From: a virus
UHGV virus genome: UHGV-1579991
Direction: 5' to 3' (one strand)
Length of the DNA stretch: 64,000 nucleotides
The position numbers were made by a program, and so were the translations under genes. The notes under the pieces are model-generated. The model searched no databases, was not told the DNA's origin, and saw only the letters and a list, made by a program, of their open reading frames with translations. Shown one piece after another: positions 11,878-64,000 of the stretch; position 1 is the stretch's first letter, and each line of letters starts with the position of its first letter.

Positions 11878-12109
11878 CGTCTTCTTCTGTTAAATCATTT
11901 TCTTCTACCAATGTGTCAGTTGTGTCAATATCTGGAAATTCGTAGTTGTTAGGTCGTTTTACGCTAATGTCATGCAAATGCTTCATAAGTTCATCACGAG
12001 TCATAAAGAACGTGTTATTATTGTCATTTGCATACATTAAAGACTTTGCTGTAGATTCATATGTAGTTGCCGTGCACATATACAACGGCAAGCCATTCAG
12101 TGTTGGCAT
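11870..12109 (-). CDS. Hypothetical acidic protein, 79 aa
   Basis: ORF overlapping ligase start by 8 nt. Confidence 0.35.
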   Translation of the reverse strand: MPTLNGLPLYMCTATTYESTAKSLMYANDNNNTFFMTRDELMKHLHDISVKRPNNYEFPDIDTTDTLVEENDLTEEDDD

Positions 12110-12110
12110 T

Positions 12111-12554
12111 TCATTGCAATTGTTTTTGATACGCTATCAATTCATTAAGCAGTTCATCTGCATGACATTGAACAAGTAGTTGCCACGTTTTTGAATCAAT
12201 GTCTTCAGTTTGCATGTACAAGTCTACTACTCGTTTGTCAAACTTGTTTATTGCATCTATAGTAGCATTACTTACAGGCTTGTCAACTTTCTTACCGCTG
12301 ATAAAAGACCATTTTGGCTGTCTTGCATTACTAAGTTCTCTATGATAAGCATTCATAACTTGTGTCATGTCCATACCGAGTTTGTTGAATGCTTGAGCAA
12401 TCTGCGGAAAGGCTATGGCAACATTGCGATTTGTCATGAATGCATTGTCTGCTTTTTGTTTTGCAGTCAACTTATCATAATCGCTATCACGAACATACAG
12501 CAACTCCTTAAATTTGAAGAAGTCTACTTTTTGTGTGATGAATTGTTCTGCCAT
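12111..12554 (-). CDS. Hypothetical protein, 147 aa
   Basis: ORF preceded by promoter-like motif. Confidence 0.45.
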   Translation of the reverse strand: MAEQFITQKVDFFKFKELLYVRDSDYDKLTAKQKADNAFMTNRNVAIAFPQIAQAFNKLGMDMTQVMNAYHRELSNARQPKWSFISGKKVDKPVSNATIDAINKFDKRVVDLYMQTEDIDSKTWQLLVQCHADELLNELIAYQKQLQ

Positions 12555-12560
12555 TGAAGT

Positions 12561-12610
12561 TTATTGTTATATAGTGATATAATACAACAAAAATCTCAAA
12601 TTTGCACACT
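12561..12610 (-). promoter_or_regulatory. Promoter-like conserved motif (GTGCAAA box ... TTGTTGTATTATAT -10-like)
   Basis: Minus-strand reading GTGTGCAAATTTGAGATTTTTGTTGTATTATATCACTATATAAC upstream of 12111-12554. Confidence 0.5.
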
Positions 12611-13118
12611 ACGATGGCTTTTTGTCATCAAATTTGAAAATGACTGGCATTGCAGAATCAGGCTTTATGTCGCCTTTGTTAACTGCGTCATTTAAGCATT
12701 CTACAATCTTTTTGCCAAGGTCTTTTACTTCTGCAGGAATTTTCTCGTATGGCACATTTGATGACAGTTGAAGCTCATTTTGCTGATGCTCGTTTTGTTG
12801 AAGCTCTGCTGTTTCAGATAGCTGCTTGTCAATTCGAGTAAACATCAATTCATCACGTGCATCAATAAATTCTTGAATTGCTTGCAGCTGCTCAATGCTG
12901 CATATGACAACACATTGCAATAAGTTTGATGCATCATAGAATGACATGCCAATAATTCGTGTAGTGTCACAATCGAATGCGCAATTGATGTCTTTCAATG
13001 TGTCCATAAATGACATTGATAAGTCTTCAATGCCTGATACATCTGCAATGCTGAACACAAATTGTGTGCTGCCAACGCATTCATGCTCATCTGAAAATAT
13101 GAGCTTATCTACTGTCAT
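12609..13118 (-). CDS. Hypothetical protein, 169 aa
   Basis: ORF. Confidence 0.45.
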   Translation of the reverse strand: MTVDKLIFSDEHECVGSTQFVFSIADVSGIEDLSMSFMDTLKDINCAFDCDTTRIIGMSFYDASNLLQCVVICSIEQLQAIQEFIDARDELMFTRIDKQLSETAELQQNEHQQNELQLSSNVPYEKIPAEVKDLGKKIVECLNDAVNKGDIKPDSAMPVIFKFDDKKPS

Positions 13119-13330
13119 TTCGTAGTTGCTTTTGTGATGATGCCCTTTGCAAGCATCTTTTTGTATGTGTCATAGCCGATAATGTCAATTGTTGTGTCGT
13201 TTACTCGCCGAACAATCAACTCTGCTTTATCTGCAGCAGACATGATGTTATCTGCAGCTTCTTTGTTTGCAGTGATAGCAGACCATTTACCATTACCGAG
13301 CTTAGTTATGTTTGCTTTGATTGATGTCAT
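13115..13330 (-). CDS. Hypothetical protein, 71 aa
   Basis: ORF with 4-nt overlap to neighbours. Confidence 0.35.
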   Translation of the reverse strand: MTSIKANITKLGNGKWSAITANKEAADNIMSAADKAELIVRRVNDTTIDIIGYDTYKKMLAKGIITKATTK

Positions 13331-16904: not shown

Positions 16905-16950
16905 TATATGTAAAAATATTGTACAACAATACTGTCATTTTTGCACAGCA
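16905..16950 (-). promoter_or_regulatory. Promoter-like conserved motif containing TTGTACAA
   Basis: Minus-strand GTGCAAAAATGACAGTATTGTTGTACAATATTTTTAC about 35 nt upstream of clamp-loader ATG. Confidence 0.5.
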
Positions 16951-18126
16951 TGGCCGCAATCGTACACAGGCACATAACCAGCGTCAAGCATTTGTTGTTC
17001 ATCTACTTCTGCAGTATGCGCAGCATACAGTCGCTTCTTGTAATTCCACCAATGTTTTCTAATAGTCAATTTGTCATTGCATATGACAGGATTTTTTGAC
17101 AAGTCTGTGCTATCTACACGTTCATTGCATAAATGCTGTCGTATGATTTCTACAACGTCATCAGGGTTATCCCAATCCCATATTGTAATGCATATGTAGC
17201 CTGCTGTAAGTGCTGCTTGAGTTTTTCTAAAATGTCTATCATTAGGAATTGGCAAATTGCGTTTAGATTTGCCAATTGCATATGCAAAGCCAAATGCAGC
17301 ATTATGTGAAAACGATGGGTTGATTTCTATTAGTAGATGCTTATAATGCAAATCATAAGAAAATCTGCCAATATTGACATCATCAAATGTGCAATCAATG
17401 TTAAGTCGTTGCAGCAAAAAATCATGCCACCAACGATTAACCGTTGTAATGGTGCGCCCATTAGCATGCCGACAACGCTCAGTCATAACAAACCAAGGTA
17501 CACCATAGCGTTCAAGATTTGTTTGCATGCGTTTTGCAGTGCCACCATATTCATCACCGTATCGTAATCTGCGTGTATGAACTGCTTTTAATGGGTTGCC
17601 AGCAGAATTGCCATATCGTAGCATCTTTGTTTGCTGCGCTTTAGCAGTAATTACACCATGGTCAGGATAGTGTTCGCGTATTGTTTGCTGCACTTTAGTA
17701 GCATTCCATGTGCGATAGCCGTACTTGTGTAATTTTGTTTGCTGGGCTTTTTGCATGTTGTTATAATATGGGTCGCCATAGCGTTCTTCTTTAATTTTGC
17801 ACATTAACTGTTGGTCGCCAAATGCATTGCCATATTTTGCAAGTTTTGTTGCCTTAAATTTAGTCATGTCGCCAAGCCCATTGCCATATCTTTCTCGTTT
17901 TGTTGCGACACCTTTGTTTGTAAATTCTTTTTAATTGCGCAGTGTTTTCAACACCATATTTACGCAAATTGCTTATACGACTGTTATATGTACGTTTGCA
18001 AATTGTGTATTGTGAGTAGCGTTTATGCTGAGGTCGTTCTTTAGACGCAGTTTGCAATATCACATCTCTTTCCTCTTCAAGTTCTTTTATGCGAGCTTCA
18101 AGAGCTTCTCCAGTTAATGGTTCCAT
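16935..18126 (-). pseudogene. Homing-endonuclease-like gene (family A paralog) split by a frameshift
   Basis: N-terminal ORF 17860-18126 (LTGEALEARIKELEEERD...ISNLRKYGVEN) and C-terminal ORF 16935-17867 (YG repeats, LLIEINPSFSHN, GYICITIWDWD) lie in different frames overlapping by 8 nt; T-run near 17925-17945. Confidence 0.5.
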
Positions 18127-28883: not shown

Positions 28884-29260
28884 GCAAATATATTTTTGTT
28901 TGTATATGTACATAAAAGAGCAAGTTCTCCACATTGAGAACTTGCTCAGCTGACCTGTTACCAGGTGAAAGCGTGGTGCAGCACCTTGTGCTGCAATGGC
29001 TATGCTGCCATCGCCATAACGGGCTGAGCATTGCCCAGCATCATTACACGACCAGCTGCATTAAGCGTACGCTTTGCTTTGTTGAAAAATTTGCCAGTTA
29101 TCTGGTATCTGCACATCTATTCAAGCGACCTACTATGCAATCAAATGCCTGTCGAGCCCAATGTTTGAGCAGTTGTTTGTCAGATGCTCAGCTGACTGCA
29201 GTCTTTCTGAGTGTATCAAGTTCAGCGATTCTGCATCTTTGCTAAATGGCAATGGTTCAG

Positions 29261-29341
29261 GTGGACTCGCCGAGAATCGAACTCGGGTCTTACATAGCGC
29301 ATCCTTGACTTGGTCCTGTAAACAGGGTTGTCAACATGCAT
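29261..29341 (-). other. tRNA-like element: clean T-arm and 3' acceptor strand, no matching 5' acceptor strand found
   Basis: Minus-strand ccgag-TTCGATT-ctcgg then cgagtcc-a; upstream sequence does not supply GGACTCG-type partner. Confidence 0.25.
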
Positions 29342-29412
29342 TGCAATACGACAGGACTCGAACCTGCGACCTCGGATTGGACGTCCGCGCTCTTACCGCT
29401 GAGCTACGTATT
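29342..29412 (-). tRNA. tRNA, isotype ambiguous (anticodon region reads CGTCCAAT: UCC/Gly with G33, or CCA/Trp with poor stem)
   Basis: Acceptor GAATACG/CGTATTG (1:72 mismatch), D-arm GCTC-AGCGGTAA-GAGC, T-arm GCAGG-TTCGAGT-CCTGT. Confidence 0.55.
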
Positions 29413-29506
29413 CTTATCAATTGACTGCACTGCAATGCAATCAATCGTGCCAATGATATTTGACACGCATAATTGCAGTTATGCGTAACAATTCAAATGT
29501 CATTTG

Positions 29507-29579
29507 AGCCAACTGCAGGAATCGAACCTGTAACCTGCTGAGTACAAATCAGCTGCTCTACCAATTGAGCTAAGTTGGC
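29507..29579 (-). tRNA. tRNA-Thr (anticodon TGT)
   Basis: Acceptor GCCAACT/AGTTGGC, D-arm GCTC-AATTGGTA-GAGC, anticodon stem GCTGA/TCAGC, loop TTTGTAC, T-loop TTCGATT. Confidence 0.75.
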
Positions 29580-29661
29580 ATAAAGTCGTTGGGCCATTGC
29601 AACCCAAACCTATCATCTTTGCCTAACCAAAGATGCAAGCGCTCTCTTACACCACGACTTG

Positions 29662-29733
29662 TAGCCGAACTTGGAGTCGAACCAAGCTTTCGAGAATGAA
29701 AATCTCGCGTCCTAACCGATAGACGAAACGGCC
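29662..29733 (-). tRNA. tRNA-Glu-like (anticodon TTC), acceptor stem irregular
   Basis: Anticodon stem CGAGA/TCTCG, loop TTTTCAT, T-arm CTTGG-TTCGACT-CCAAG; acceptor GGCCGTT vs TTCGGCT has mismatches at 6:67 and 7:66. Confidence 0.5.
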
Positions 29734-29916
29734 AAGAGCAGTTCAAGTCTGCAGCATTGAACTGCGGAAACAATGCCTGTACGGGCAACCAATTGTGCAG
29801 ATACAGCGACATTGCAAAATCACACCGAACCAAGTTTGTGGCTCTTCTGTCTCATAAAAACAAGTAATCATTACACTTGGCACCAATGATTTTGATGTAA
29901 AAATCGGTGTGTTACG

Positions 29917-30001
29917 CGGAGAGTAAGGGATTCGAACCCCTGGTACGTTGCCGTACAGTGGTTTTCAAGACCACCGCCATCGACCGCTCGGCCAACTCTC
30001 C
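29917..30001 (-). tRNA. tRNA-Ser (anticodon TGA), long variable arm
   Basis: Acceptor GGAGAGT/ACTCTCC, anticodon stem GTGGT/ACCAC, loop CTTGAAA, variable arm GTACG-GCAA-CGTAC, T-loop TTCGAAT. Confidence 0.75.
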
Positions 30002-30194
30002 ATAAAACATTGCATAAGCATTCTTATCTCTTGATGAGGCCAAGTAGCTAATTTGGCAAGTTTGTTATATCTATCGTGACTGTTGCAGTTTGTTGTCACT
30101 CAATACACAAAACTTTCGAACATTCATTGACAACACTGCAATATCGCTTTTTAAGCTCAGCCATCAATGTATTTATGCAATGTATAACAATTCG

Positions 30195-30276
30195 TAGCCA
30201 AACCGGGACTTGAACCCAGACTCCTAATGGAACAACATTTTGAGTGTTGCGTGTCTACCAATTCCACCATTTGGCC
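30195..30276 (-). tRNA. tRNA-Leu (anticodon CAA), long variable arm
   Basis: Acceptor GGCCAAA/TTTGGCT, anticodon stem CAACA/TGTTG, loop CTCAAAA, T-loop TTCAAGT. Confidence 0.7.
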
Positions 30277-30373
30277 ATTTGCAAATGCAAGCTGTTTCAC
30301 AACTGTTTGCATTTGCATTTGCATTGTTTAACACACTAAAATATGATTCATCTAATCAAAAACCAGAGAATTG

Positions 30374-30446
30374 TCGAGAATGTGCGATTTGAACGCCAAT
30401 TATACGTCCCAAACGTATCGTGTTACCGGATTACACTACATTCTCG
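30374..30446 (-). tRNA. tRNA-Pro (anticodon TGG)
   Basis: Acceptor CGAGAAT/ATTCTCG, anticodon stem ATACG/CGTAT, loop TTTGGGA, T-loop TTCAAAT (T-stem imperfect). Confidence 0.65.
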
Positions 30447-30453
30447 TTAATTG

Positions 30454-30524
30454 TTGAACTGTCTGGACTCGAACCAGAAATATATCATCCAAAGTGATAT
30501 GTGTTACCATTACACCACAGCTCA
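30454..30524 (-). tRNA. tRNA-Gln (anticodon TTG)
   Basis: Acceptor TGAGCTG/CAGTTCA, D-stem GTGT/ACAC, anticodon stem TATCA/TGATA, loop CTTTGGA, T-arm TCTGG-TTCGAGT-CCAGA. Confidence 0.75.
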
Positions 30525-30568
30525 GTATATAATGTATGCTTGTGTTATTATGTATATTTGTTAGTAAT

Positions 30569-30607
30569 TATATGAATAATATACTACATTTATTTATGAT
30601 TTGCACC
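30569..30607 (-). promoter_or_regulatory. Promoter-like conserved motif upstream of tRNA cluster
   Basis: Minus-strand GGTGCAAATCATAAATAAATGTAGTATATTATTCATATA. Confidence 0.5.
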
Positions 30608-30629
30608 ATATACTGCAACTTTGTATCAC

Positions 30630-30992
30630 TTAATTGCACAATGTGACTCTGTCTTTAAGTTTATGCATGTGTAGCACGTTTGCAATATCTACTGGCAACT
30701 TATATGACCCATCAGATATTGCAAATGCTGCAAGTTGCATAATCAAATCTGCATTGTCTGTAAGAACTTCTGCAAATTTACTGGCATCACAACATGCGTA
30801 ATACTTGCGAATTGTTGCTGCTTGCTTTTGTATGATGACACGCACATATACAGTTTGAGCAATGACTGCGCGTCGTAAATCAACTTTGACAATACACATA
30901 GTGTCATCGTCGTCTTTCACGACATGTCGCCATACGCCGTCATTGCAAATGCCATGCTGTGCTATAAGTGTTTTAGTGATATCAGACATCAT
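30630..30992 (-). CDS. Hypothetical protein, 120 aa
   Basis: ORF. Confidence 0.4.
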   Translation of the reverse strand: MMSDITKTLIAQHGICNDGVWRHVVKDDDDTMCIVKVDLRRAVIAQTVYVRVIIQKQAATIRKYYACCDASKFAEVLTDNADLIMQLAAFAISDGSYKLPVDIANVLHMHKLKDRVTLCN

Positions 30993-37858: not shown

Positions 37859-38551
37859 GTGCGGTTTACACTCGTAGATGATATGAGCATACCTTGTGCA
37901 TATATGCCAAACATATATGTGTTTGCTGATGGCAATGAGTATGCAATATCTCCAATAGGTTCACAATCACTTGATTATGACGGCTCATGTATTGTACGTA
38001 TTACCAAGTCAGACTGGATTGAAATGTTTGGCGCTGGTGTTACACAAGGCAGACTTAAATTTGGCTATGGCACAAATGAGCTTGAATTTTGTGAATTGAT
38101 AAGCGCTGCAACTGCTGAAGTCAAATTCGTTATTGGTTATGAACAAAGCCAGTCTGTCACTGCAACATTTAGTGATTTGCTGCATAATCCACTTGTCGCA
38201 ACAAACAACAATTCTGCACAAGCAACAATTACATATACATTTAGTCATGCGACATTTAGAACAGCAGCATTTAAGATTATCGGTAATGTGACATTATTAC
38301 CAGGCGGTGATGTAAGTAACACAGCTACAATTCTTGCGCCTAATTATAGTACAACAATTAAGTACACTACGTCATCAACGCCAAAACTATTTGAGCATTC
38401 AATGACATTTGAGCGTAACAATGAAATGCTTGAGTATGTTGGCACTGAAGTAGACAGACATGCGTATTGTCAAATGAGACGTAGAACTACGGGCTTAACT
38501 GTATATTGTCATGTGTATATTGATGATAGCATGCTTAATATGATGAATTGA
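37859..38551 (+). CDS. Hypothetical beta-rich protein on the plus strand; GTG start at 37859 or ATG at 37883
   Basis: Only plus-strand gene in a long minus-strand array; preceded by a G7 tract (37826-37832) and followed by a strong hairpin terminator. Confidence 0.45.
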   Translation: MRFTLVDDMSIPCAYMPNIYVFADGNEYAISPIGSQSLDYDGSCIVRITKSDWIEMFGAGVTQGRLKFGYGTNELEFCELISAATAEVKFVIGYEQSQSVTATFSDLLHNPLVATNNNSAQATITYTFSHATFRTAAFKIIGNVTLLPGGDVSNTATILAPNYSTTIKYTTSSTPKLFEHSMTFERNNEMLEYVGTEVDRHAYCQMRRRTTGLTVYCHVYIDDSMLNMMN

Positions 38552-52749: not shown

Positions 52750-53622
52750 TCAAGCTTGACTACTTTTGTTGATTACGAGATACTTGTATCGTTCTTTGAT
52801 TGTGATGTTCTTTGATTTTGCCGCCTCGATTTCTTTGCGTTCCTTGGAGGAATAGTTGAACTTAATGTAGTCGGAGAACAATTCGGGCTTATCTGCTACT
52901 TCATTGTTCTTGACTTCTTTTACAAGAGTTTGCTGAAACTCATTGATTGTAGTGAAACCAAGGAATGACTGGAACTTGTTAAGCGGAAACAGCTTATCTG
53001 TGTTGTCCTCGAATGTCGGGAATTCGTCGGAATACGTAATTTCGATTTGGTCTACGAAATATCTAAGTTTTTCCCAAGGTTCCTTGCCAATGAGGAGAAT
53101 GTTCTGATGGTCAAGTTTTTCCTCGAACATTTCCAGGAGACATTCGTATGATTTTACGAGACGAACTCCAGGATATGTAATTGATGCAATTGAACGAGGT
53201 TTGTGAGTCGTCTTGACTTCTTTATTGTATGTTTCCTCGTCGATGCAATAGATGTATCGCTTGACCTTGTCGTATTCTTTCGGAAGATAGTTGTTGTCAA
53301 GGAATTGCTTGTCAACTACAATGAAACTGAAAGGATAGAGTTCATTGAATCGTTGACGAAGCTGTTCTGTTGCAAGGAAGAAATGCGAGCCATCTTTTGC
53401 TGCAAATTCCATATTTGAATTGCATCCTGCATATGCAATGTATCTGTTTCGCTTCCATTTGAGGAATCGACTTACCAGGTTCTTTTCGAAGATGTCCTTG
53501 TATTTGAAGTAGGTGTCCCAGTACTCCTTAACAATTCCATCTTGCATTTTTCTTGACAATTTTGAATTGTCTACCGGCCTATCAGTAAAAACTGATGGTT
53601 TGTTTGCGTTGTATAATCCCAT
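52750..53622 (-). CDS. Hypothetical Lys/Glu-rich protein with codon usage unlike neighbouring genes; candidate transferase of the sugar module (function unassigned)
   Basis: 290-aa ORF; visibly different codon choice (frequent GAG, AAG, TTC, AGG-containing context) compared with the GCA/CAA-rich flanking genes. Confidence 0.5.
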   Translation of the reverse strand: MGLYNANKPSVFTDRPVDNSKLSRKMQDGIVKEYWDTYFKYKDIFEKNLVSRFLKWKRNRYIAYAGCNSNMEFAAKDGSHFFLATEQLRQRFNELYPFSFIVVDKQFLDNNYLPKEYDKVKRYIYCIDEETYNKEVKTTHKPRSIASITYPGVRLVKSYECLLEMFEEKLDHQNILLIGKEPWEKLRYFVDQIEITYSDEFPTFEDNTDKLFPLNKFQSFLGFTTINEFQQTLVKEVKNNEVADKPELFSDYIKFNYSSKERKEIEAAKSKNITIKERYKYLVINKSSQA

Positions 53623-54075: not shown

Positions 54076-55062
54076 TTATACTACAGCAGACAATTGTTGC
54101 AATGTTGACTGCATAACGTCATCAGTTACAAATAATTCGTTTTCAGTGAACACATAAAATTTTAAGCCATGTTGTTTTGCATATTGCACTGCTGCAGTAG
54201 ATTTTTTACGTACTGCATCACAAAATGCATATGCACATGGCTTAATTTCTATTAGCAATCCATATGTAGGCAAATAGAAATCTACAATGTATTTATGATG
54301 CCCATTGTATGGCACTGCAACAGTTTCATATTCATATTGAATGCCAAGACGTTCTAATGTCAATACAAAATGAGTTTCATAACTACTGCGTGTATGCAAT
54401 TGCGTTGGCATTGCAATAGAATGACATTTTACACACTGCTGAACAAGTACTAATGCGCGTTTGCCCTTACCACAGTTTTGCATTTTGCCATTTTGCATTG
54501 CTCGTGCAACACCTGCAGCAACGTGCATAGCAAATGATGGGTCTTCTTTATATTTTCGTCGTAACCCTGCAGATACACGAGACTTAAAGTCTGGGTCTTC
54601 TGCATAGCGTCTGTTCAAACCAGCAGTTACTCGTTGGCTAAATGTCGGGTCATTCACTACAGCAACCATTGCTTTTCGCGTGCCAATTGACACATTTTTA
54701 CATCGAGTTTCATCTCGCCATACTTTAGACATAGATGCTGTCCAGCGTTTAACATATTCAGGGTCATCAAACGCATGTTTTGCGCGACAGCATTTACAAA
54801 CATTATTAAAGTAGCCATATCTAATGCCTATGTATGCTATAGCAGCCCCACAATATTTGCAATGTTTTGCTGCGTCATCATACAATAGATATTTGTCATA
54901 GTAGTCTTGTTCATGCATATTAACAGATTGTAATGCTCTGCGTATTGTGCATGATGTACACCATTTGTTAAGCTCTGGTACATAATACTCATAACGTTGC
55001 TGCCCCTTTGGTGTTATTCGTGCAAGTCTTTTATATTCCGGATGATATGTAGGATTTTTCAT
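54076..55062 (-). CDS. Free-standing homing-endonuclease-like protein (family B): Cys-rich N-terminus, NUMOD3-like repeats, C-terminal PD-(D/E)xK core
   Basis: Repeats PTFSQRVTAGLNRRY / PDFKSRVSAGLRRKY / PSFAMHVAAGVARAM; nuclease core YIVDFYLPTYGLLIEIKP. Confidence 0.5.
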   Translation of the reverse strand: MKNPTYHPEYKRLARITPKGQQRYEYYVPELNKWCTSCTIRRALQSVNMHEQDYYDKYLLYDDAAKHCKYCGAAIAYIGIRYGYFNNVCKCCRAKHAFDDPEYVKRWTASMSKVWRDETRCKNVSIGTRKAMVAVVNDPTFSQRVTAGLNRRYAEDPDFKSRVSAGLRRKYKEDPSFAMHVAAGVARAMQNGKMQNCGKGKRALVLVQQCVKCHSIAMPTQLHTRSSYETHFVLTLERLGIQYEYETVAVPYNGHHKYIVDFYLPTYGLLIEIKPCAYAFCDAVRKKSTAAVQYAKQHGLKFYVFTENELFVTDDVMQSTLQQLSAVV

Positions 55063-57651: not shown

Positions 57652-59601
57652 TTAGTCATTTGCTTTAGTTGCTTGCATCAGTTCAGCAAAGCTTACAGTG
57701 TAAGCGTCTTCGCCAACGGTCACGTATGCAGCATTGACATTTGAGTCATTGCCTGTGTATGTAACCAAGGTGCCTGCAGGAATTTCCACACCGTCAATGG
57801 TTCGCATCGAATTGACAAGCTTGTATGTCTTGTTATCTTCGAAGTTCTCATTGACATATGCAGCAGCAATCATTGTTGAACGCTTACGAGATTCATTGAT
57901 GAAACTTGCGCCAACAAGTTCTGACAACTTCTTCTTTGTTACAGCAGAGCATTTGTCATATGCAATGTCAATTGCGAGGTCTACATCACCAAGTTCCTTT
58001 GCAATGAGTTCATCAATCTGAGACAGCTTCTTGTCATCTTTGACAGCGACAAAATTCATTGCAAACTTGCGAGCGTTGTCTGACAATGATTCATCAATGT
58101 TCCACTGTTTCATCAATGTCTGCTTCAGTACCTTGTCAAGTTCCGACCAGTCCTTATCTGCAAGAGTAGTTGCATCAAAGTCTTCATTGCTGAACTGCTT
58201 CAGCACTTTGACTTTGTCATCATGTGACAATGCAGCCCACTTGTTTGCAGCCTCTTCAGCAGATTCAAGCAAAGGCTTGATTGCATCTTTGAGTTCTTGC
58301 GGCCAAGTTTCAGGCGCTTTGAGCAGCATCTCAGATGAGTTGTACTCAAGCATGTCAGTCATGATTGCAAGCTTAACATTGTTAGCTTTCTCCTCGGGTG
58401 ACAGAGCTTTGAACTTTTCAGCCCAGTCTTCAGATTCAGTTACAATTGACACTGGTTTTGCAAAACCAGCAACAAAGACAAGCTTATACATGATATTCGT
58501 CATGAATGAGCAAACTGCATCAATGTCTGACTGTGTTGCTGCAGATTGAGCATCACGAATGTTGAGCAATGCCTGACGAAGAGACATAATGCCTACAACA
58601 GGGTCAGACCATGTCAACACAACAGAGCTGTCAATTGTGATACCCTTGTCGAATCGCATATTTTCTGCAATACGGTCAGCAAGTTCAGGCAGTTCAGTGT
58701 AGTACTGCTCAAGTGCTGCATGTGTAGCAGGAATCGAAACTTTTGCAGCATCAAATGGGTTGTTGATGTGCATAACATGTGCAGTTTGAATTGACTGCAT
58801 CAGCATCGACACTACTGCAGATTCTATTGCAACATCATCTGCAGCAGCTTCATCAAGATTTGCAAGTTTTAGCAATGTCTTTTTGTCTGCATCTGACAAT
58901 CGCAGCCAAATGTATTCCCATTGACTGTTTGCATCATAGCCACGGTCAGTAGCAAACTTGGTGAGTTCTGCAGATTTCTTTGCTGCGTCATCGTCATCAA
59001 GCCAATCCAAGAATGCTTTCAGTTTGTCGTCAAATGCTTCATTAACAAATGACGCCATTGCATTTTGCAGCAAATATTGATGGTCTCGTACTGGCGACTC
59101 AACAATTTCAAAGCCTTCAAGAGACTTTGGCGAGTCAGTTGCTGAACCAGCTTCAAGACACTTCTTTGATGCATTGTCAATGACAAACCACATCTTTTGT
59201 GCTTTGAGTGCAATGTAAGTCTTGTCTTTTGATTGCTGAACAGTCATGTTGTCAAGAGCCAATGCACTGATTGGCAAATTCTTGACTGCTGACTTGTCAA
59301 GTGCTTCATTGACTGCTACATTGTCATCACTCATTAACTGAGTATTTGCAGCAAATGTTGCAGAATCAATGTTAAGCTCTTTGCCATCAGGCATAGAGAA
59401 CTTAACTGCATCTGCAACATCAAGCACTTGTACCATGGTACCTGCTTCGACTTTGTCATCACCAACAGCGAACTCAGTTACAACCTGATATGCCTTGTTA
59501 GCTTCAACAGTTTCAACAGACTCCATAATGAACTTTGCTGTACTGCAAGAGATTTTGTGCTTTTTCATGTTCATGTATGAATTTGAGTGTTTGTTGTTCA
59601 T
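57652..59601 (-). CDS. Hypothetical acidic helical protein, about 649 aa (start uncertain); possible scaffold or virion protein
   Basis: Long ORF located between capsid-gene region and the protease gene. Confidence 0.45.
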   Translation of the reverse strand: MNNKHSNSYMNMKKHKISCSTAKFIMESVETVEANKAYQVVTEFAVGDDKVEAGTMVQVLDVADAVKFSMPDGKELNIDSATFAANTQLMSDDNVAVNEALDKSAVKNLPISALALDNMTVQQSKDKTYIALKAQKMWFVIDNASKKCLEAGSATDSPKSLEGFEIVESPVRDHQYLLQNAMASFVNEAFDDKLKAFLDWLDDDDAAKKSAELTKFATDRGYDANSQWEYIWLRLSDADKKTLLKLANLDEAAADDVAIESAVVSMLMQSIQTAHVMHINNPFDAAKVSIPATHAALEQYYTELPELADRIAENMRFDKGITIDSSVVLTWSDPVVGIMSLRQALLNIRDAQSAATQSDIDAVCSFMTNIMYKLVFVAGFAKPVSIVTESEDWAEKFKALSPEEKANNVKLAIMTDMLEYNSSEMLLKAPETWPQELKDAIKPLLESAEEAANKWAALSHDDKVKVLKQFSNEDFDATTLADKDWSELDKVLKQTLMKQWNIDESLSDNARKFAMNFVAVKDDKKLSQIDELIAKELGDVDLAIDIAYDKCSAVTKKKLSELVGASFINESRKRSTMIAAAYVNENFEDNKTYKLVNSMRTIDGVEIPAGTLVTYTGNDSNVNAAYVTVGEDAYTVSFAELMQATKAND

Positions 59602-59851: not shown

Positions 59852-60874
59852 TCATTGTTGTTTATGCCAGCCATATGATGCCTGACCAGCATCATACACT
59901 TCTACAAAACCATGGTCGTACATAAAATCTTCATTACGAGTGCCCTTGCCACCATTAGTGCCAAGAATACGGTCTGCACCATGCATAAGTAGCATGTTAT
60001 TTGTGACATGTTGCTTTGTCAGCATATTGAACCAGTGTTTGCTATATGACAAACCAAGACCATCAAAGCCCAGCTTTGTGTACACACCACCGTCAAACTT
60101 GCTTAAATCACAATATGATAACACAGATTCAGGGTCATATGTCTTGATAAAGTGCTTAAAGATTCGTTCAGCACCACCAACAACTTTGGTTGCTGCACAA
60201 AGACGTAGCAATTCATATTGATAGCGCTTATTGTATCGTGGACGACCAAATGTCATAAGTTGATGAATGACATAACCACCAAGCAACTCAAGTGGATGAC
60301 CTTCAATCAACGCAAGATTGATAAAATTGCCTGAGCACTTGCCTTGCAAATGATGTTCAATCAAAAATTGATTTGCAGTATACTTGTCAATTTCAACAAC
60401 TTTAAGCTTGCGAGCATATACAATCTTTGATTTGTCTACGATTTGATGCTTGATGTGATTGATAACTTTCTTGGCGTCATCCCAATCCCACACATGAATA
60501 CAATGAAAGCCTGCAGCTTTTGCAATGTCTGTTTTCTTTGCATGAACATCACAAGGCAAATGTGCATCTTTTGCATCATGCATAAACAAGTGCTCAAATG
60601 AATGCGTACTGTTATGCGAAAATGCAGGATTGATGTTAATGACAATATTGTCATGTCGAAAATCGAAGACTTCATCACCAATGACAAAGTTGCGCTCAAA
60701 ATCTATACCGACATGTTTGAGCAACACTTGATGCCACACGTCTTTATAGGCTGATTCAAGCTTGCTTAGCTCATCACAGTTTGCAATGTTTTTGTAACGT
60801 TGAATAGCAGCATCAAAGTCAAGATTGACTTCAGCGTAGTCTGCATTTTTATCATAGTGAAATTTTGAGCTCAT
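59852..60874 (-). CDS. Homing-endonuclease-like protein with N-terminal PD-(D/E)xK-like domain related to the C-terminal domain of family A
   Basis: Start at MSSKFHYDK (ATG 60874-60872); IVININPAFSHNSTH...GFHCIHVWDWDD. Confidence 0.45.
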   Translation of the reverse strand: MSSKFHYDKNADYAEVNLDFDAAIQRYKNIANCDELSKLESAYKDVWHQVLLKHVGIDFERNFVIGDEVFDFRHDNIVININPAFSHNSTHSFEHLFMHDAKDAHLPCDVHAKKTDIAKAAGFHCIHVWDWDDAKKVINHIKHQIVDKSKIVYARKLKVVEIDKYTANQFLIEHHLQGKCSGNFINLALIEGHPLELLGGYVIHQLMTFGRPRYNKRYQYELLRLCAATKVVGGAERIFKHFIKTYDPESVLSYCDLSKFDGGVYTKLGFDGLGLSYSKHWFNMLTKQHVTNNMLLMHGADRILGTNGGKGTRNEDFMYDHGFVEVYDAGQASYGWHKQQ

Positions 60875-60890
60875 GCGTATAATTTTGTGT

Positions 60891-60935
60891 ATATAATTAT
60901 TGTACAACATGCAAATGCACATTGCATTTGATACA
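60891..60935 (-). promoter_or_regulatory. Promoter/operator element shared by homing-endonuclease genes
   Basis: Minus-strand GCAATGTGCATTTGCATGTTGTACAATAATTATATAC; near-identical element at 62041-62085. Confidence 0.5.
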
Positions 60936-60965
60936 ACATACAGTATAAGTTTGCTTTTGACAGAC

Positions 60966-62027
60966 TTATTTTGTATTGCTACGCGTCATTGTTAAATGAC
61001 CGCAATCATACACATCAACTTCTGTTTTGCCAAGCATACATGTATGACAATTTATTTTGAAATCTGCTGCAGTGTAATCAGGATAGTTTAGCGGAGATTC
61101 TTTTGACAAATCAATTTCAATTGTGTCAGTAGTTTTAAGTTGTTCAGTGCCTGCAATGATATCTGCAATAAGATTGATAACTTCTTCTTGTGAATCCCAA
61201 TCAAACACAGTTATGCAACGATAGCCTGCATCAAGTGCAAGTTTTGTTTTGTTGTAATGGTATTGAGCACCAATAACATTGTTGTCTTTTGCTCGACCAG
61301 TTAAATATGCAAAACTAACAGTGCAGTTGTGCGTAACTGTTGGACAAATTTCTATAAGTAACTTTGCAGGCTCATACTGCAAATCATATGTTTGATTATT
61401 GATGTTAAACTCGTACTGTGTATCAATTGCCAACTGTCGTAATAACGCATCATGCCACATCATATTACATTTAGAAATTGTTTTGGATGACAATCTGCAT
61501 TGCGGCAATTGACATGGCCAATCTACGCCGTACATTTGTTGTGTTGTTTGACGCATTTTGTTAACATCACCAAAATGATTGCCATATCGATGCTCTTTGG
61601 TTTTAAGCGACTGCTCAATATTGACATTGCCTACACAACCATAACGTTCAAGTTTTGTTGCAGCAGTTTTGCTAACATCACCATGCCCATTGCCAAATTT
61701 GGCGACTTTAGTTGCAAGTATTTTATGACTTGGGCCAAATGCATTGCCATACAATTCTTGTTTAGTCGCAAGCATTTTGTCGATATTACAACCAGCGCCA
61801 TAAGTGTTATGCATAGTTTGCATACGTTGTCGAATAAATTTTGGCACAGATAAAGGACTTTCTACACCATATTTGCGTAAGCAACTGATTTTGCATGCGT
61901 ACTTTTGCTTGATGACAGAATGTGCATTTCGACGTCCTATGTAAGTGTTTTCTGATGTAGCAGCAAGCTCTGCATCTCTAAGAACTTCAAGTGCAGCAAT
62001 TCGTGCTTCAATTTCTTCAGATGTCAT
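60966..62027 (-). CDS. Free-standing homing-endonuclease-like protein (family A paralog)
   Basis: N-term EEIEARIAALEVLRD, YG repeats (ELYGNAFG, ERYGCVGN, HRYGNHFGD), C-term LLIEICPTVTHN...GYRCITVFDWD. Confidence 0.5.
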   Translation of the reverse strand: MTSEEIEARIAALEVLRDAELAATSENTYIGRRNAHSVIKQKYACKISCLRKYGVESPLSVPKFIRQRMQTMHNTYGAGCNIDKMLATKQELYGNAFGPSHKILATKVAKFGNGHGDVSKTAATKLERYGCVGNVNIEQSLKTKEHRYGNHFGDVNKMRQTTQQMYGVDWPCQLPQCRLSSKTISKCNMMWHDALLRQLAIDTQYEFNINNQTYDLQYEPAKLLIEICPTVTHNCTVSFAYLTGRAKDNNVIGAQYHYNKTKLALDAGYRCITVFDWDSQEEVINLIADIIAGTEQLKTTDTIEIDLSKESPLNYPDYTAADFKINCHTCMLGKTEVDVYDCGHLTMTRSNTK

Positions 62028-62040
62028 TTTTTATCATATT

Positions 62041-62085
62041 GATAATTGTACAACATGCAAATGGCGTTTGCATTTGATGCAACAA
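62041..62085 (-). promoter_or_regulatory. Promoter/operator element shared by homing-endonuclease genes
   Basis: Minus-strand GCAAACGCCATTTGCATGTTGTACAATTATCAATATG. Confidence 0.5.
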
Positions 62086-62113
62086 TGACTTAGCTTGTAC
62101 AGTTTGCAAAAAA

Positions 62114-62144
62114 GAACCGCTTGCAATCTAATTGCAAGCGGTTC
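62114..62144 (-). terminator. Rho-independent terminator downstream of capsid gene
   Basis: 14-bp stem gaaccgcttgcaat/attgcaagcggttc followed on minus strand by TTTTTT. Confidence 0.7.
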
Positions 62145-62373
62145 AATGAATACGTTTGTCAGAAACTGTCAATGGTGCAATCGCTTGAAGAGTTAGCTGA
62201 ACAACTTGTTGATGCGATTGCTGCATTGGTGACTACCAAGCAGCCCATTGAACATTGGATTCGACATCAACGTCTTTGTGGTTGTTGTTAAACTCCCCAA
62301 GCCAGCAAGTATCATTTAGCAAGTTTCCAAACTTAACGTACTTGTCGTTCCCCGGCTTGGGTGGCGCAGGTTG

Positions 62374-63957
62374 TCAAATCCAGCCGTAGTCGCTGTGGAT
62401 AGCGAAGGTGAGGTAAGCCAACTCGGGATACATACCCGTCTCCGCGAGAGCGTAATCCGACTCAATCAGCAACTTAGGCGCTGCTGTACCTTCGGCTGTT
62501 AATTCCACACTTGATGCAAGGTCATATGGCATGAATACGCATCCCTGGTTGACATTCTCTACGTCAACGCCGTCAGCAGTTTTGTTCGTACGAAGAACGA
62601 GAACAGTGTTATCGTTCAGCGGCTGCTTAGGATTGCAATAGATTTTAATGCCAGCAAGGTCACCTGCATAATACAGGTTCTTGTTGTCCTGTACCAGCGT
62701 ATTGTCAAGAGCTGCAACAAAGTTCTTCTGAGCCTTAATTGCAACCAAGGCAATCGTATTGACCACGGCAGCATCACCGGCACCGAAACGCGACAGGTTG
62801 CCAATGATTGCCGAAGCAGCCAGGATACGAGTTGCGATACGAGCCTGACGGGTAATCTGGTTCTCAGCCGAGCTGTTCGATTCAGCGTTCGGAACCATAC
62901 CGAATTCAGCCGTACGGTCTACACCCATCTTGTCGACAAATGCAGGAGCCTGGAATTCTGAGAATGCCTTGGCGGTTGAACCAGCGTAGCCAATGTACAA
63001 GTTCAGGTTGTAGCCCTGAGCAGCCAACAGCTGAGCATGTGTCGTAACACCAAGTGCACGCATGCGCTTCAGACCATTGTCGTTAATTGACTGCGTGATT
63101 TCATTCTGCATTGCATTCTTGATGATTGCAACTGCATCCAAACCGCGAGCACGGAGGTCCTTAACCTGTCGACGAGTCAGAGCACCCCAAGTCTGGTACG
63201 TCTTAACTTCGATAGCCTTTGAGAAGGTGCGGAGCTCCAGCATGTTCGGGTTGCCAGCCTCAGCCTCAGAACGAGACATTGGGTTGCCGTCAATGTCATC
63301 CATTGCAGCGAAGCCGTGGATGTGTTCGTCACCAGCCGAAACCAGGTCGAACATAACCTCAGTCATGCCAGTCAGCATGTCAGTTACAGCACCTGCAGCG
63401 TCAACCGAGTAGATTTTCGATGCAGCCATTGCAACATCAGCCAACGACTTGTCAGGAGCAACTGTCATTGCGCCACCTGCGCCTACAGTGTACACGCCCT
63501 CATTGCGAACTACGAGGTAGCCTGCAACACGCGATACCTGTACAAACGTTACCTTGGCAGCAAGCTCACCGGCAGCTGAACCGCCGATGTACAGAACTTG
63601 ACCCTTCTTGAGGCCATGAACCATTGTCTGCGAAGCAACATTGTACAACTCCTTCCACTTGATGAGGAAGTAACGAGGACCCTTGGCTGCATTCAACTTG
63701 CCACCGCCATATACGTAGTCTACATAGTCCAGCTGAACCAGCGGGCTGTAAACAGGAATGGTCGGGAGCAGGTCGAACAGAATCGTGTTGGCTGCGATGT
63801 TCATGTTCAGAGCCAGAACATTGGCAGCTACATCTATTGAACCACGCTTACGCGACGGGTCATGGAACTGTGCTTGCGTACCTGGGTCAGCAGGGAAAGC
63901 GACCGGACCTACGCCATTGAGATTCTGCGAATACGTCGACTCAAACGACTCGTTCAT
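62374..63957 (-). CDS. Major capsid protein (T4 gp23-like)
   Basis: 527 aa; central region NMLELRTFSKAIEVKTYQTWGALTRRQVKDLRARGLDAVAIIKNAMQNEITQSINDNGLKRM parallels the gp23 segment around IDKQVIEAKSRQLKAAYSIELAQDLRAVHGMDADAELSGILATEIMLEINREVVDWI; markedly G/C-ending codon usage unlike the rest of the window. Confidence 0.65.
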   Translation of the reverse strand: MNESFESTYSQNLNGVGPVAFPADPGTQAQFHDPSRKRGSIDVAANVLALNMNIAANTILFDLLPTIPVYSPLVQLDYVDYVYGGGKLNAAKGPRYFLIKWKELYNVASQTMVHGLKKGQVLYIGGSAAGELAAKVTFVQVSRVAGYLVVRNEGVYTVGAGGAMTVAPDKSLADVAMAASKIYSVDAAGAVTDMLTGMTEVMFDLVSAGDEHIHGFAAMDDIDGNPMSRSEAEAGNPNMLELRTFSKAIEVKTYQTWGALTRRQVKDLRARGLDAVAIIKNAMQNEITQSINDNGLKRMRALGVTTHAQLLAAQGYNLNLYIGYAGSTAKAFSEFQAPAFVDKMGVDRTAEFGMVPNAESNSSAENQITRQARIATRILAASAIIGNLSRFGAGDAAVVNTIALVAIKAQKNFVAALDNTLVQDNKNLYYAGDLAGIKIYCNPKQPLNDNTVLVLRTNKTADGVDVENVNQGCVFMPYDLASSVELTAEGTAAPKLLIESDYALAETGMYPELAYLTFAIHSDYGWI

Positions 63958-64000
63958 ATACTGAACGTTCTGAGCGATTGATGCGAGCAGATACTTCTTA

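What the first reader, a model, noticed from the sequence alone, without database searches (positions are those of the whole stretch)
62374..64000. Sharp codon-usage shift at the major capsid gene
From about 62.2 kb to the window end the coding sequence is rich in G/C-ending codons (GGC, GCC, ACC, CTG), in contrast to the A/T-ending preference elsewhere. This continues into a partial upstream gene (63958-64000). It is consistent with translational selection on very highly expressed late genes and may report the host's preferred codons, or alternatively a mosaic structural module of different origin.
Basis: seen in the sequence. Interest (0 to 1): 0.4.

Follow-up and report, generated by a model that had tools for sequence, protein, structure and literature searches.

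The report
Capsid gene tuned to host codons
The major capsid gene of this uncultured T4-like phage uses a codon set very different from every other gene nearby, one that matches highly expressed genes of Bacteroidales bacteria; this is the well-known effect of selection for efficient translation of a phage's most abundant protein, not imported DNA.

Summary
The shift is real and confined to one gene. GC3 is 0.55, against 0.35 ± 0.04 for 54 other ORFs. Conditioned on the gene's own amino-acid sequence, z = 10.7. Synonymous heterogeneity gives χ² = 408 (41 df).

- **What changes.** The signature is loss of A-ending codons (A3 0.30 to 0.13). They are replaced by C- and G-ending codons and by T-ending GCT, GGT, GTT and CGT. 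GGC is not enriched.
- **The "partial upstream gene".** Bases 63958–64000 belong to the capsid gene itself. Its true start lies 89 nt beyond the window.
- **Extent.** In near-identical contigs the real upstream gene has GC3 0.28 and the 5' leader has GC 0.25. The shift therefore stops at the ORF boundaries.

Translational selection toward host-preferred codons is supported:
- The change is codon-specific and phase-specific.
- Other head and tail genes lie on the same axis. Homing-endonuclease genes sit at the opposite end.
- Relatives with saturated synonymous divergence keep a capsid-only bias.
- Against Bacteroidales EF-Tu genes the capsid gene scores a mean r of 0.74. Every other gene scores 0.42 or less.

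Mosaic import and biased gene conversion are rejected. The phenomenon is known, so interest is low.

The parts
62374..64000 (-). Major capsid protein gene (T4 gp23 family), cut by the window end. Codons 31-571 of 571 plus the stop are present. The true ATG lies 89 nt beyond base 64000. This is the only gene with the strong codon shift.
   Evidence: Pfam PF07068 at 43.8 bits. Relatives annotated as major capsid at 35-39% identity. Full-length 571-aa form in L003, L004 and P0001. GC3 0.547, z = 10.7.
62145..62373 (-). Non-coding 3' segment of the capsid transcript, about 230 nt, specific to this lineage. GC is about 0.46 and it is predicted to be structured.
   Evidence: Conserved in five strains and absent in L005 and L011, where the terminator follows the stop codon. 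Folds at -92.5 kcal/mol including the terminator, z = -4.7.
62104..62144 (-). Intrinsic terminator closing the capsid transcription unit: a 14-bp stem, 3-nt loop and T6 run.
   Evidence: Terminator scan and the sequence itself.
60966..62027 (-). Homing-endonuclease-like gene (DUF7487) directly downstream of the capsid gene. GC3 is 0.263, at the opposite extreme of the codon axis, which sharpens the contrast.
   Evidence: Pfam DUF7487 at 29.9 bits against a 27 cut-off. GC3. PC1 and z = -3.7. Replaced by different genes in strains L009 and L010.
59852..60922 (-). Second homing endonuclease gene (HNH/Hef-like), GC3 0.347.
   Evidence: phrog_3339 at 1.3e-41 and phrog_559 HNH at 1.2e-35.
29343..30524 (-). 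Phage tRNA cluster: Gly-UCC, Thr-UGU, Glu-UUC, Ser-UGA, Leu-CAA, Pro-UGG and Gln-UUG. These read the codons that the bulk of the genome favours and the capsid gene avoids.
   Evidence: ARAGORN and Rfam tRNA hits at 44-68 bits. Cognate-codon fraction is 0.169 in the capsid gene against 0.453 +/- 0.062 elsewhere, z = -4.6.

Best explanation
The capsid gene encodes the most abundant protein the phage has to make. Its synonymous sites have been shaped by selection for fast and accurate translation on the host's most abundant tRNAs. The other roughly 50 genes seen here drift with the phage's A/T-ending mutational and compositional bias, and a phage-encoded set of NNA-reading tRNAs partly supports them.

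In this lineage the favoured set is GCT, GGT, GTT, CGT, CTG/CTC, CAG, AAG, GAG, TCG, ACG, CCG and the C-ending two-fold codons. Because many of these end in G or C, the selection shows up as a jump in GC3. In relatives on low-GC hosts the same selection favours T- and C-ending codons and leaves GC3 unchanged. The neighbouring homing-endonuclease genes have the lowest GC3 in the genome, which makes the edge look especially sharp.

Shown: the statistics, the ORF-limited boundaries, codon and phase specificity, the gradient across gene classes, recurrence in relatives, and similarity to Bacteroidales EF-Tu codon usage.

Inferred: that the gene is highly expressed, that host tRNA abundance is the selective agent, and that the host is a Bacteroidales species (Prevotella-like is the best guess).
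For: 1. Magnitude. GC3 is 0.547 against a null of 0.348 +/- 0.019 given the gene's own amino acids. chi2 = 408 with 41 df, and split-half z = 6.7-8.0.
2. It is not a GC shift. A3 falls from 0.30 to 0.13 and T3 is unchanged. GCT rises from 0.24 to 0.52, GTT from 0.33 to 0.53 and CGT from 0.30 to 0.74. G/C-ending codons fall in Val, Gly and Arg.
3. It is limited to the ORF. The 5' gap has GC 0.24-0.25. Flanking genes have GC3 0.26-0.36 in five strains.
4. It is phase-specific. In-frame ACA is 3.1 per kb against 8.9, while out-of-frame ACA is 14.2 against 14.2.
5. There is a gradient. PC1 explains 24% of the variance. The capsid gene is at one end, followed by a head-module gene (phrog_32623), the 290-aa gene at 52750-53622, the prohead protease/core gene and the tail sheath. 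The DUF7487 and TnsA-like endonuclease genes are at the other end.
6. Relatives. L005 (capsid 74% identical, other proteins 30-53%, downstream gene order kept) has capsid GC3 0.48 against 0.30-0.40 for its neighbours, and its shift vector correlates with this one at r = 0.56, p = 4e-6. L011 has 0.36 against 0.16-0.33. Lak-A2 has 0.24 against 0.08-0.28, where two short unannotated ORFs (0.276 at 11871-13229 and 0.336 at 30280-30636) lie above the capsid gene. MA9V-2, PAU and PTm1 show strong codon-specific shifts with no change in GC3.
7. Synonymous sites between lineages are saturated: 48-58% of codons for conserved amino acids differ. The bias must therefore be actively maintained. The changes are directional: GAA>GAG 9:0, AAA>AAG 8:0, TCT>TCG 7:0.
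8. External reference. The mean r to 11 Bacteroidales EF-Tu genes is 0.74 for the capsid gene. The next gene scores 0.42 and the lowest scores -0.06.
9. Host phylum. Shine-Dalgarno motifs are absent (1 of 53 genes), and the cultured relatives infect Bacteroidota.
10. Prior art. Head genes exceed tail genes, which exceed non-structural genes, in host-preferred codon use across 74 phages (PMC2266997).
Against: - No expression, proteome or tRNA-abundance data are available.
- The host is unknown. The genus-level host call is not robust: the correlation ranking puts Prevotella first, but a log-likelihood ranking puts other Bacteroidota first.
- The positive control is imperfect. The PTm1 capsid gene matches Flavobacteriaceae EF-Tu, but Tenacibaculum itself ranks only 30th of 80.
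- Other virion genes, such as the tail sheath, show only a mild shift, so the effect is unusually concentrated in one gene.
- TCG and ACG are not the preferred Ser and Thr codons in the two Prevotella EF-Tu genes. They are preferred in Alistipes, Parabacteroides and Muribaculaceae.
- Only 64 kb plus 10 kb of a roughly 175-kb genome was examined.
Confidence: 0.8

Rival explanations
1. Mosaic origin. The capsid gene, or the head module, was imported by recombination from a phage with higher GC content and still keeps the donor's composition.
For: The compositional edge is sharp and the gene is flanked by homing-endonuclease genes that could promote exchange. The capsid protein is much more conserved than its neighbours between lineages: 74% against 30-53%.
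Against: - The shift stops at the ORF: the 5' leader has GC 0.25.
- G/C-ending codons fall in Val, Gly and Arg, while T-ending codons rise.
- Downstream gene order is kept in L005.
- A capsid-only bias is present in several diverged lineages although synonymous sites are saturated, so a donor signal would have been erased.
- No homologue lies between 99% and 76% identity, so there is no candidate donor.
- High conservation of the capsid protein is normal for T4-like phages (my own knowledge).
Confidence: 0.04
2. GC-biased gene conversion. Repeated double-strand-break repair driven by the flanking homing endonucleases raised the GC content at silent sites of the capsid gene.
For: Endonuclease-like genes sit on both sides of the capsid gene, and they vary between strains that share an identical capsid protein. 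This shows ongoing recombination at this spot.
Against: - Biased conversion should raise all G/C-ending codons, yet GTC+GTG, GGC+GGG and CGC+CGG fall and GCT, GGT, GTT and CGT rise.
- L005 and L011 show the capsid-only shift although no homing-endonuclease family was reported for the genes beside their capsid genes. L011's called neighbours carry no endonuclease Pfam hit, and L005's neighbours were not scanned.
- The untranslated 5' gap between the endonuclease gene and the capsid gene is AT-rich, with GC 0.25.
Confidence: 0.03
3. Selection acts on the mRNA rather than on decoding. Avoiding A-rich sequence protects the very abundant capsid transcript from A/U-specific ribonucleases or toxin endoribonucleases, or tunes its folding.
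For: The dominant signal is loss of A at third positions, both in families served by phage tRNAs (z = -4.6) and in families without one (z = -3.3). AAA and AAAT are rarer in all three phases. The transcript carries a strongly structured 3' end.
Against: - ACA depletion is confined to the codon phase. Overall ACA is above the synonymous-shuffle expectation (z = +2.9), and AAAT and AAAA match it.
- The specific T-ending preferences (GCT, GGT, GTT, CGT) and the C-over-T preference in two-fold families are classic decoding preferences. They match EF-Tu genes of Bacteroidales.
Confidence: 0.08
4. The capsid gene is adapted to phage-encoded tRNAs that lie outside the sequence examined, for example C34 tRNAs reading NNG codons, rather than to host tRNAs.
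For: Only about 74 kb of a roughly 175-kb genome was seen. The phage does carry one C34 tRNA, Leu-CAA. In some phages late genes are best matched to the phage's own tRNA pool (Sf14, PMC12482277). The NNG preference is specific to this lineage.
Against: - The seven tRNAs found read the codons that the capsid gene avoids: 0.169 against 0.453.
- The preferred T- and C-ending codons, and the agreement with Bacteroidales EF-Tu usage, need no phage tRNA.
- No tRNAs occur in the 10 kb upstream.
Confidence: 0.05

Closest known systems
Translational selection for host-preferred codons in phage structural genes (Lucks, Nelson, Kudla and Plotkin 2008, PMC2266997). The classic strong bias of T4 gene 23 is cited from my own knowledge.
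   Same: [quoted passage not shown] The order head, then tail, then non-structural is seen here too.
   Different: Here the effect is concentrated almost entirely in one gene. The host is unknown, so no true CAI could be computed. The phage belongs to an uncultured Bacteroidota-associated T4-like clade. The preferred set includes the unusual NCG codons TCG, ACG and CCG.
Phage tRNA sets that complement codons common in the phage and rare in the host. In Shigella phage Sf14, late structural genes are best matched to the phage tRNA pool (PMC12482277).
   Same: The phage carries a tRNA cluster whose anticodons match the codons favoured by the bulk of its genes.
   Different: The capsid gene, which should be the most expressed late gene, uses the tRNA-cognate codons least of all genes (0.169 against 0.453, z = -4.6). 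This is the opposite of the Sf14 pattern. The avoidance also extends to A-ending codons that have no phage tRNA, so it is not specifically about the tRNAs.
PAU / MA9V / PTm1 / pT24 group of about 220-kb T4-like jumbo phages, and the Lak megaphages
   Same: The Gp23-family capsid protein is 28-39% identical. It has an N-terminal extension. A homing-endonuclease gene follows the capsid gene in MA9V-2 and PTm1. All show capsid-specific codon bias.
   Different: The genome here is about 175 kb with GC 0.40. The capsid bias raises GC3 by 0.20, whereas in the cultured relatives GC3 is unchanged (z from -0.7 to +0.7).

Membership tests
T4-type major capsid protein (Pfam PF07068 Gp23) | Profile match above the curated threshold over most of the protein | tested here: met
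   43.8 bits against a 24.4 cut-off, residues 54-510. The precomputed PF07068 hit is present on all 81 homologues.
T4-type major capsid protein (Pfam PF07068 Gp23) | Homology to proteins identified as the major capsid protein in cultured phages | tested here: met
   35-39% identity over 98-100% of the length to the annotated major capsid proteins of MA9V-2, PAU gp156 and PTm1.
T4-type major capsid protein (Pfam PF07068 Gp23) | N-terminal propeptide removed by the prohead protease | not testable with these tools
   A conserved 44-residue N-terminal extension exists, and a prohead protease/core gene lies upstream. Cleavage itself cannot be shown in silico.
T4-type major capsid protein (Pfam PF07068 Gp23) | HK97-like fold | not tested
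   No structure was predicted. A sequence search of the PDB found no hit.
Translationally selected, host-adapted phage structural gene | Synonymous codon usage differs from the genome after controlling for amino-acid sequence | tested here: met
   z = 10.7. chi2 = 408 with 41 df, and split-half z = 6.7-8.0.
Translationally selected, host-adapted phage structural gene | The difference is not explained by GC3 alone | tested here: met
   T-ending GCT, GGT, GTT and CGT rise. G/C-ending Val, Gly and Arg codons fall. T3 is unchanged.
Translationally selected, host-adapted phage structural gene | The shift is toward codons of the host's highly expressed genes | tested here: inconclusive
   The host is unknown. 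Against 11 Bacteroidales EF-Tu genes the capsid gene has r = 0.69-0.80, against -0.04 to 0.34 for the pooled rest. In the bootstrap, Prevotella-like EF-Tu genes are the best match in 82% of replicates. Genus-level ranking depends on the method, and the PTm1 control resolves only to family.
Translationally selected, host-adapted phage structural gene | Bias scales with expected expression (head, then tail, then non-structural) | tested here: met
   The ranking runs capsid, head-module gene, sheath and protease/core, bulk genes, then homing endonucleases. Expression is inferred from function, not measured.
Horizontally acquired compositional island (mosaic module) | Composition shift extends over non-coding flanks and all codon families | tested here: not met
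   The 5' gap has GC 0.24-0.25. The change is specific to codon family.
Horizontally acquired compositional island (mosaic module) | Break in gene order or patchy presence relative to related genomes | tested here: not met
   The capsid gene sits in a conserved downstream context in L005 and L011. Capsid-only bias is present in all lineages at 73-76% identity that were examined.
Homing endonuclease genes (flanking ORFs) | Match to endonuclease families, and presence or absence that varies between close strains | tested here: met
   59852-60922 matches phrog_3339 at 1e-41 and HNH at 1e-35. 60966-62027 and the L003 upstream gene match DUF7487. Different genes flank an identical capsid gene in L009 and L010. 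Nuclease activity and homing were not tested.

The most novel reading that the evidence does not exclude
The capsid gene and the rest of the genome may use separate decoding resources. The capsid mRNA would be tuned to the host's own abundant tRNAs and would be the gene least dependent on the phage's NNA-reading tRNAs. That is the reverse of the view that phage tRNAs serve late genes.

Its codon set was also retuned in this lineage (GAA>GAG, AAA>AAG, TCT>TCG, ACA>ACG) while the background codon usage stayed the same (r = 0.94). This could mark a host switch within Bacteroidales. If so, capsid-gene codon profiles could serve as a fine-scale host predictor for uncultured phages.
Probability: 0.25. 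Interest if true: 0.4.

Novelty: new member of a known kind. Interest (0 to 1): 0.2.

Why it matters
Mostly this closes a question. The compositional jump is not a recombination scar, a foreign module or an assembly artefact. It is ordinary selection on the codons of the phage's most abundant protein.

It has two modest uses:
- **Host hint.** The capsid gene's codon set, together with the absence of Shine-Dalgarno sites, points to a Bacteroidales host, possibly Prevotella-like, for an uncultured roughly 175-kb T4-like phage. Capsid-gene codon profiles may help predict hosts where genome-wide codon usage does not. The rest of this genome correlates only -0.04 to 0.34 with the same reference genes.
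- **Counter-example.** It goes against the idea that phage tRNAs mainly serve late structural genes. Here the capsid gene uses the phage-tRNA codons least.

Tried and rejected
- **DNA-level search of the phage collection.** No match.
- **Capsid-family scan of 185,579 species genomes for a binned or integrated copy that would name a host.** 74 pattern hits, none confirmed.
- **Sequence search of the PDB.** No hit.
- **A gp24-like vertex paralogue as a low-copy internal control.** No full paralogue exists. ORF 37859-38551(+) shows only 31% identity over 97 aa to capsid residues 402-489, and it is unrelated to the short capsid-like paralogue of MA9V-2. It was too weak to use.
- **Nuclease-motif avoidance (ACA, AAAT, A-runs).** Rejected, because depletion is codon-phase-specific and the counts match synonymous shuffles.
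- **Pure GC3 or donor-composition model, and GC-biased gene conversion.** Rejected on family-wise third-base patterns.
- **Genus-level host call from EF-Tu codon usage.** The correlation and the bootstrap favour Prevotella. A log-likelihood ranking and the PTm1 and PAU controls show that the method resolves only to about order or family level.
- **ARAGORN's tmRNA call at 28909-29351.** Not supported by Rfam.
- **The other GC-rich kilobases of the window.** 1-1000 lies in a tape-measure-like gene with GC3 0.356, so the excess sits at the first two codon positions. 29001-30000 is the tRNA cluster. Neither is a codon shift.
Full report
**What the window is**

The window has GC 0.404 and nearly all its genes are on the minus strand. 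It is part of an uncultured T4-like phage.
- It is 94-97% identical in DNA to two IMG/VR contigs of about 175 kb, IMGVR_UViG_3300045988_152288 and _149023.
- It has no DNA-level match among deposited phages.
- ORF 62374-63957(-) matches Pfam Gp23, the T4 major capsid family, at 43.8 bits against a 24.4 cut-off.
- That ORF is 35-39% identical to the annotated major capsid proteins of Chryseobacterium phage MA9V-2, "Sphingomonas" phage PAU and Tenacibaculum phages PTm1 and pT24. It is 28% identical to those of the Lak megaphages.

Yes.
- GC3 of the capsid ORF is 0.545. The 54 other ORFs have mean 0.353, sd 0.044 and maximum 0.457.
- I drew codons for the capsid protein's own amino-acid sequence from genome-wide codon usage. 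This gave GC3 0.348 +/- 0.019, with no draw of 5000 above 0.418. The observed value is 0.547 (z = 10.7). Other genes range from z = -4.1 to +4.2.
- Summed synonymous heterogeneity is chi2 = 408 with 41 df (p = 5e-62).
- A codon index trained on one half of the gene scores the other half at z = 6.7-8.0 above all other genes, so the result is not circular.
- The shift is uniform from the N- to the C-terminus.
- The two other GC-rich kilobases of the window are not codon shifts. 1-1000 lies in a tape-measure-like gene with GC3 0.356. 29001-30000 is the tRNA cluster.

1. It is not simply a gain of G/C-ending codons. Third-position A falls from 0.302 to 0.131. C and G each rise by about 0.10, and T is unchanged (0.342 against 0.322).
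   - T-ending codons rise: GCT 0.24 to 0.52, GGT 0.35 to 0.53, GTT 0.33 to 0.53, CGT 0.30 to 0.74.
   - The cited GGC falls from 0.56 to 0.44.
   - G/C-ending codons fall for Val (0.42 to 0.16), Gly (0.60 to 0.44) and Arg CGN (0.24 to 0.21).
2. The "partial upstream gene" at 63958-64000 is the capsid gene itself.
   - The frame stays open to the window edge.
   - In L003 and L004 the ORF begins 132 nt upstream of the window's ATG, which is 89 nt past base 64000. This gives 571 residues.
   - The 74-75% relative L005 has the same conserved N-terminus (MNAK...) and has Ile (ATC) where the window has that ATG.
   - Public gene calls give 571 aa (P0001).
3. The shift does not continue upstream. 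In L003 the next gene is a 463-aa DUF7487/homing-endonuclease-like ORF with GC3 0.28, and the 88-nt leader has GC 0.25.
4. Bases 62145-62373 are non-coding. They form a 3' segment of about 230 nt that ends at a 14-bp terminator hairpin at 62114-62144 followed by a T-run.

**Why the edge looks so sharp**

The capsid gene is bracketed by homing-endonuclease-like genes, which have the lowest GC3 in the genome.
- Downstream lie 60966-62027 (DUF7487, GC3 0.263) and 59852-60922 (phrog_3339 at 1e-41 and HNH, GC3 0.347). Upstream in L003 lies the 463-aa gene with GC3 0.28.
- Strains encoding the capsid protein P0001 (99% identical to L003's; L009 and L010) carry different genes at both flanks: 612 or 468 aa upstream and 447 or 387 aa downstream, all with GC3 0.27-0.36.

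**Mechanism**

The evidence favours translational selection.
- **Codon-specific and phase-specific.** In-frame ACA is depleted (3.1 against 8.9 per kb), while out-of-frame ACA is identical (14.2 against 14.2 per kb). Counts of ACA, AAAT and A-runs match or exceed those of synonymous shuffles.
- **Main codon-usage axis.** PC1 explains 24% of the variance. The capsid gene is at one extreme. It is followed by a head-module gene (phrog_32623), the 290-aa gene at 52750-53622, the prohead protease/core gene and the tail sheath. The DUF7487 and TnsA-like endonuclease genes are at the other extreme.
- **Recurrence in relatives.**
  - L005: capsid 74% identical, other orthologues 30-53%, downstream gene order kept. 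Capsid GC3 is 0.48 against 0.30-0.40 for its neighbours. Its shift vector correlates with this one at r = 0.56 (p = 4e-6), on a nearly identical background (r = 0.94).
  - L011: 0.36 against 0.16-0.33.
  - Lak-A2: 0.24 against 0.08-0.28, where two short unannotated ORFs (0.276 and 0.336) lie above the capsid gene.
  - MA9V-2, PAU and PTm1: strong capsid-specific preferences (ATC, AAC, TAC, TTC, ACT, TCT, GCT, GGT, CGT) with no change in GC3 (z from -0.7 to +0.7).
- **Active maintenance.** Between lineages, 48-58% of codons for conserved amino acids differ, in the capsid gene as in other genes. Synonymous sites are therefore saturated, and a composition inherited from a donor could not persist. 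Within the capsid gene the changes are directional: GAA>GAG 9:0, AAA>AAG 8:0, TCT>TCG 7:0, ACA>ACG 5:0.

**External test of "host-preferred codons"**

- Shine-Dalgarno motifs are absent (1 of 53 genes against 2.7 expected at random) and the leaders are A-rich and G-poor. This pattern is typical of Bacteroidota (my own knowledge) and fits the hosts of the relatives.
- I fetched 80 EF-Tu genes, mostly from Bacteroidota, and compared synonymous codon fractions.
- The capsid gene correlates best with the two Prevotella entries (0.80 and 0.79) and with L043 (0.79). L043 comes from a bin labelled Oscillospiraceae, but its EF-Tu is Bacteroidales-like. Alistipes (0.76) and Muribaculaceae (0.75) follow.
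- Against 11 Bacteroidales EF-Tu genes the capsid gene's mean r is 0.74. The next phage genes score 0.42 (57652-59601) and 0.38 (52750-53622). The lowest, a TnsA-like endonuclease gene, scores -0.06. The pooled remainder scores -0.04 to 0.34.
- In the bootstrap, the best match is one of the three Prevotella-like genes in 82% of replicates.
- Limits of the test:
  - A log-likelihood ranking orders the Bacteroidota differently.
  - TCG and ACG are preferred in the EF-Tu of Alistipes, Parabacteroides and Muribaculaceae but not of Prevotella.
  - The PTm1 control recovers Flavobacteriaceae, yet Tenacibaculum itself ranks only 30th of 80.
- The test therefore supports adaptation toward highly expressed Bacteroidales genes. 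It does not support a firm genus.

**Relation to the phage tRNAs**

- The cluster at 29343-30524 encodes Gly-UCC, Thr-UGU, Glu-UUC, Ser-UGA, Leu-CAA, Pro-UGG and Gln-UUG.
- Their Watson-Crick cognate codons make up 0.453 +/- 0.062 of the relevant families in other genes. In the capsid gene they make up 0.169 (z = -4.6).
- A-ending codons without a phage tRNA are also avoided (0.183 against 0.391, z = -3.3).
- The capsid gene is thus the gene least dependent on the phage tRNAs. This contrasts with reports such as Sf14, where late genes fit the phage tRNA pool best (PMC12482277). However, the avoidance is general to A-ending codons, and only part of the genome was seen.

**Rivals**

- **Mosaic import.** Disfavoured by the ORF-limited boundaries, the family-specific pattern, the conserved gene order, the recurrence across saturated divergence, and the lack of any homologue between 99% and 76% identity.
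- **GC-biased conversion driven by the endonucleases.** Disfavoured by the falls in G/C-ending Val, Gly and Arg codons. L005 and L011 also show the shift, and no endonuclease family was reported for the genes beside their capsid genes (L005's neighbours were not scanned).
- **mRNA-level avoidance of A-rich sites.** Disfavoured by phase specificity.
- **Adaptation to unseen phage tRNAs.** Cannot be excluded without the full genome.

**Comparison with what is known**

This is the phenomenon described by Lucks et al. 2008. Across 74 phages, head genes are biased toward host-preferred codons more than tail genes, and tail genes more than non-structural genes, after controlling for amino acids and GC3 (PMC2266997). 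The present case is a clear and unusually concentrated instance in an uncultured Bacteroidota-type phage. I rate it a new member of a known kind and of low interest.

Noticed in passing
whole window; GATC at 1594, 18896 and 48132 only: GATC is almost absent: 3 sites against about 207 expected from dinucleotide shuffles, or 170 from a Markov model. There are none in the capsid gene, against 6.2 expected from synonymous shuffles. CTAG is also strongly avoided (2 against 61). This suggests GATC-specific restriction in the host.
   Followed up: partly
window 59852-62027; L003 8389-9780; L009 5783-7621 and 9788-11131; L010 3-1407 and 3574-4734: The capsid gene is a hotspot for homing-endonuclease-like cassettes. 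Strains with an identical or 99% identical capsid protein carry different genes on both flanks. MA9V-2 and PTm1 also have an endonuclease gene right after the capsid gene. Further DUF7487 or endonuclease-like genes in the window (3445-4719, 16935-17867, 54076-55062) have the lowest GC3 values (0.25-0.31).
   Followed up: partly
window 62030-62080 (minus strand), and upstream of 59852-60922 at about 59880-59900: A conserved promoter-like motif, AAATGCAA...CATTTGCATGTTGTACAAT(T/A)ATC, precedes each of the different endonuclease genes downstream of the capsid terminator in all five strains. Similar TGCATGTTGTA(C/T)AAT strings recur in other intergenic regions.
   Followed up: no
window 62145-62373 (minus strand): A segment of about 230 nt lies between the capsid stop codon and the terminator. 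It is specific to this lineage and absent in L005 and L011. GC is about 0.46, and it folds well below shuffled controls (z = -4.7 including the terminator). It also contains a 56-aa antisense ORF (62121-62291, plus strand; 66 aa in L003) of doubtful reality.
   Followed up: partly
window 28909-29351 (minus strand): ARAGORN reports a permuted tmRNA next to the tRNA cluster. Rfam finds no tmRNA at the gathering threshold, so this is probably a false positive.
   Followed up: yes
all 53 gene starts in the window: Shine-Dalgarno motifs are essentially absent (1 of 53 genes, below the random expectation of 2.7). Leaders are A-rich and G-poor, as in Bacteroidota-type translation initiation.
   Followed up: yes
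L007 19812-21569 (phage PAU capsid gene) against L076 (Sphingomonas EF-Tu): Codon usage of the PAU capsid gene is uncorrelated with Sphingomonas EF-Tu (r = -0.07, rank 72 of 80). It matches Flavobacteriaceae EF-Tu at r = 0.91. That is odd for a phage recorded on Sphingomonas paucimobilis, and all its relatives infect Bacteroidota.
   Followed up: no
window 37859-38551 (plus strand): One of the few plus-strand ORFs (230 aa, GC3 0.27) has weak similarity to capsid residues 402-489: 31% over 97 aa, pairwise E = 2e-4. It may be a diverged capsid-fold fragment. It is not related to the short capsid-like paralogue of MA9V-2.
   Followed up: partly
L043 (contig CAVFVD010000036.1): A contig binned as "uncultured Oscillospiraceae" carries an EF-Tu gene 84% identical to the Bacteroides-type query, with Prevotella-like codon usage. 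It is probably a mis-binned Bacteroidales contig.
   Followed up: no
window 57652-59601 and 52750-53622 (minus strand): After the capsid gene, these two genes of unknown function have the most host-like codon usage in the window. One is 649 aa with a DUF5856 match and is conserved downstream of the capsid gene in L005 and L011. The other is 290 aa and 50% identical to its L005 orthologue. They are candidates for abundant virion proteins.
   Followed up: partly
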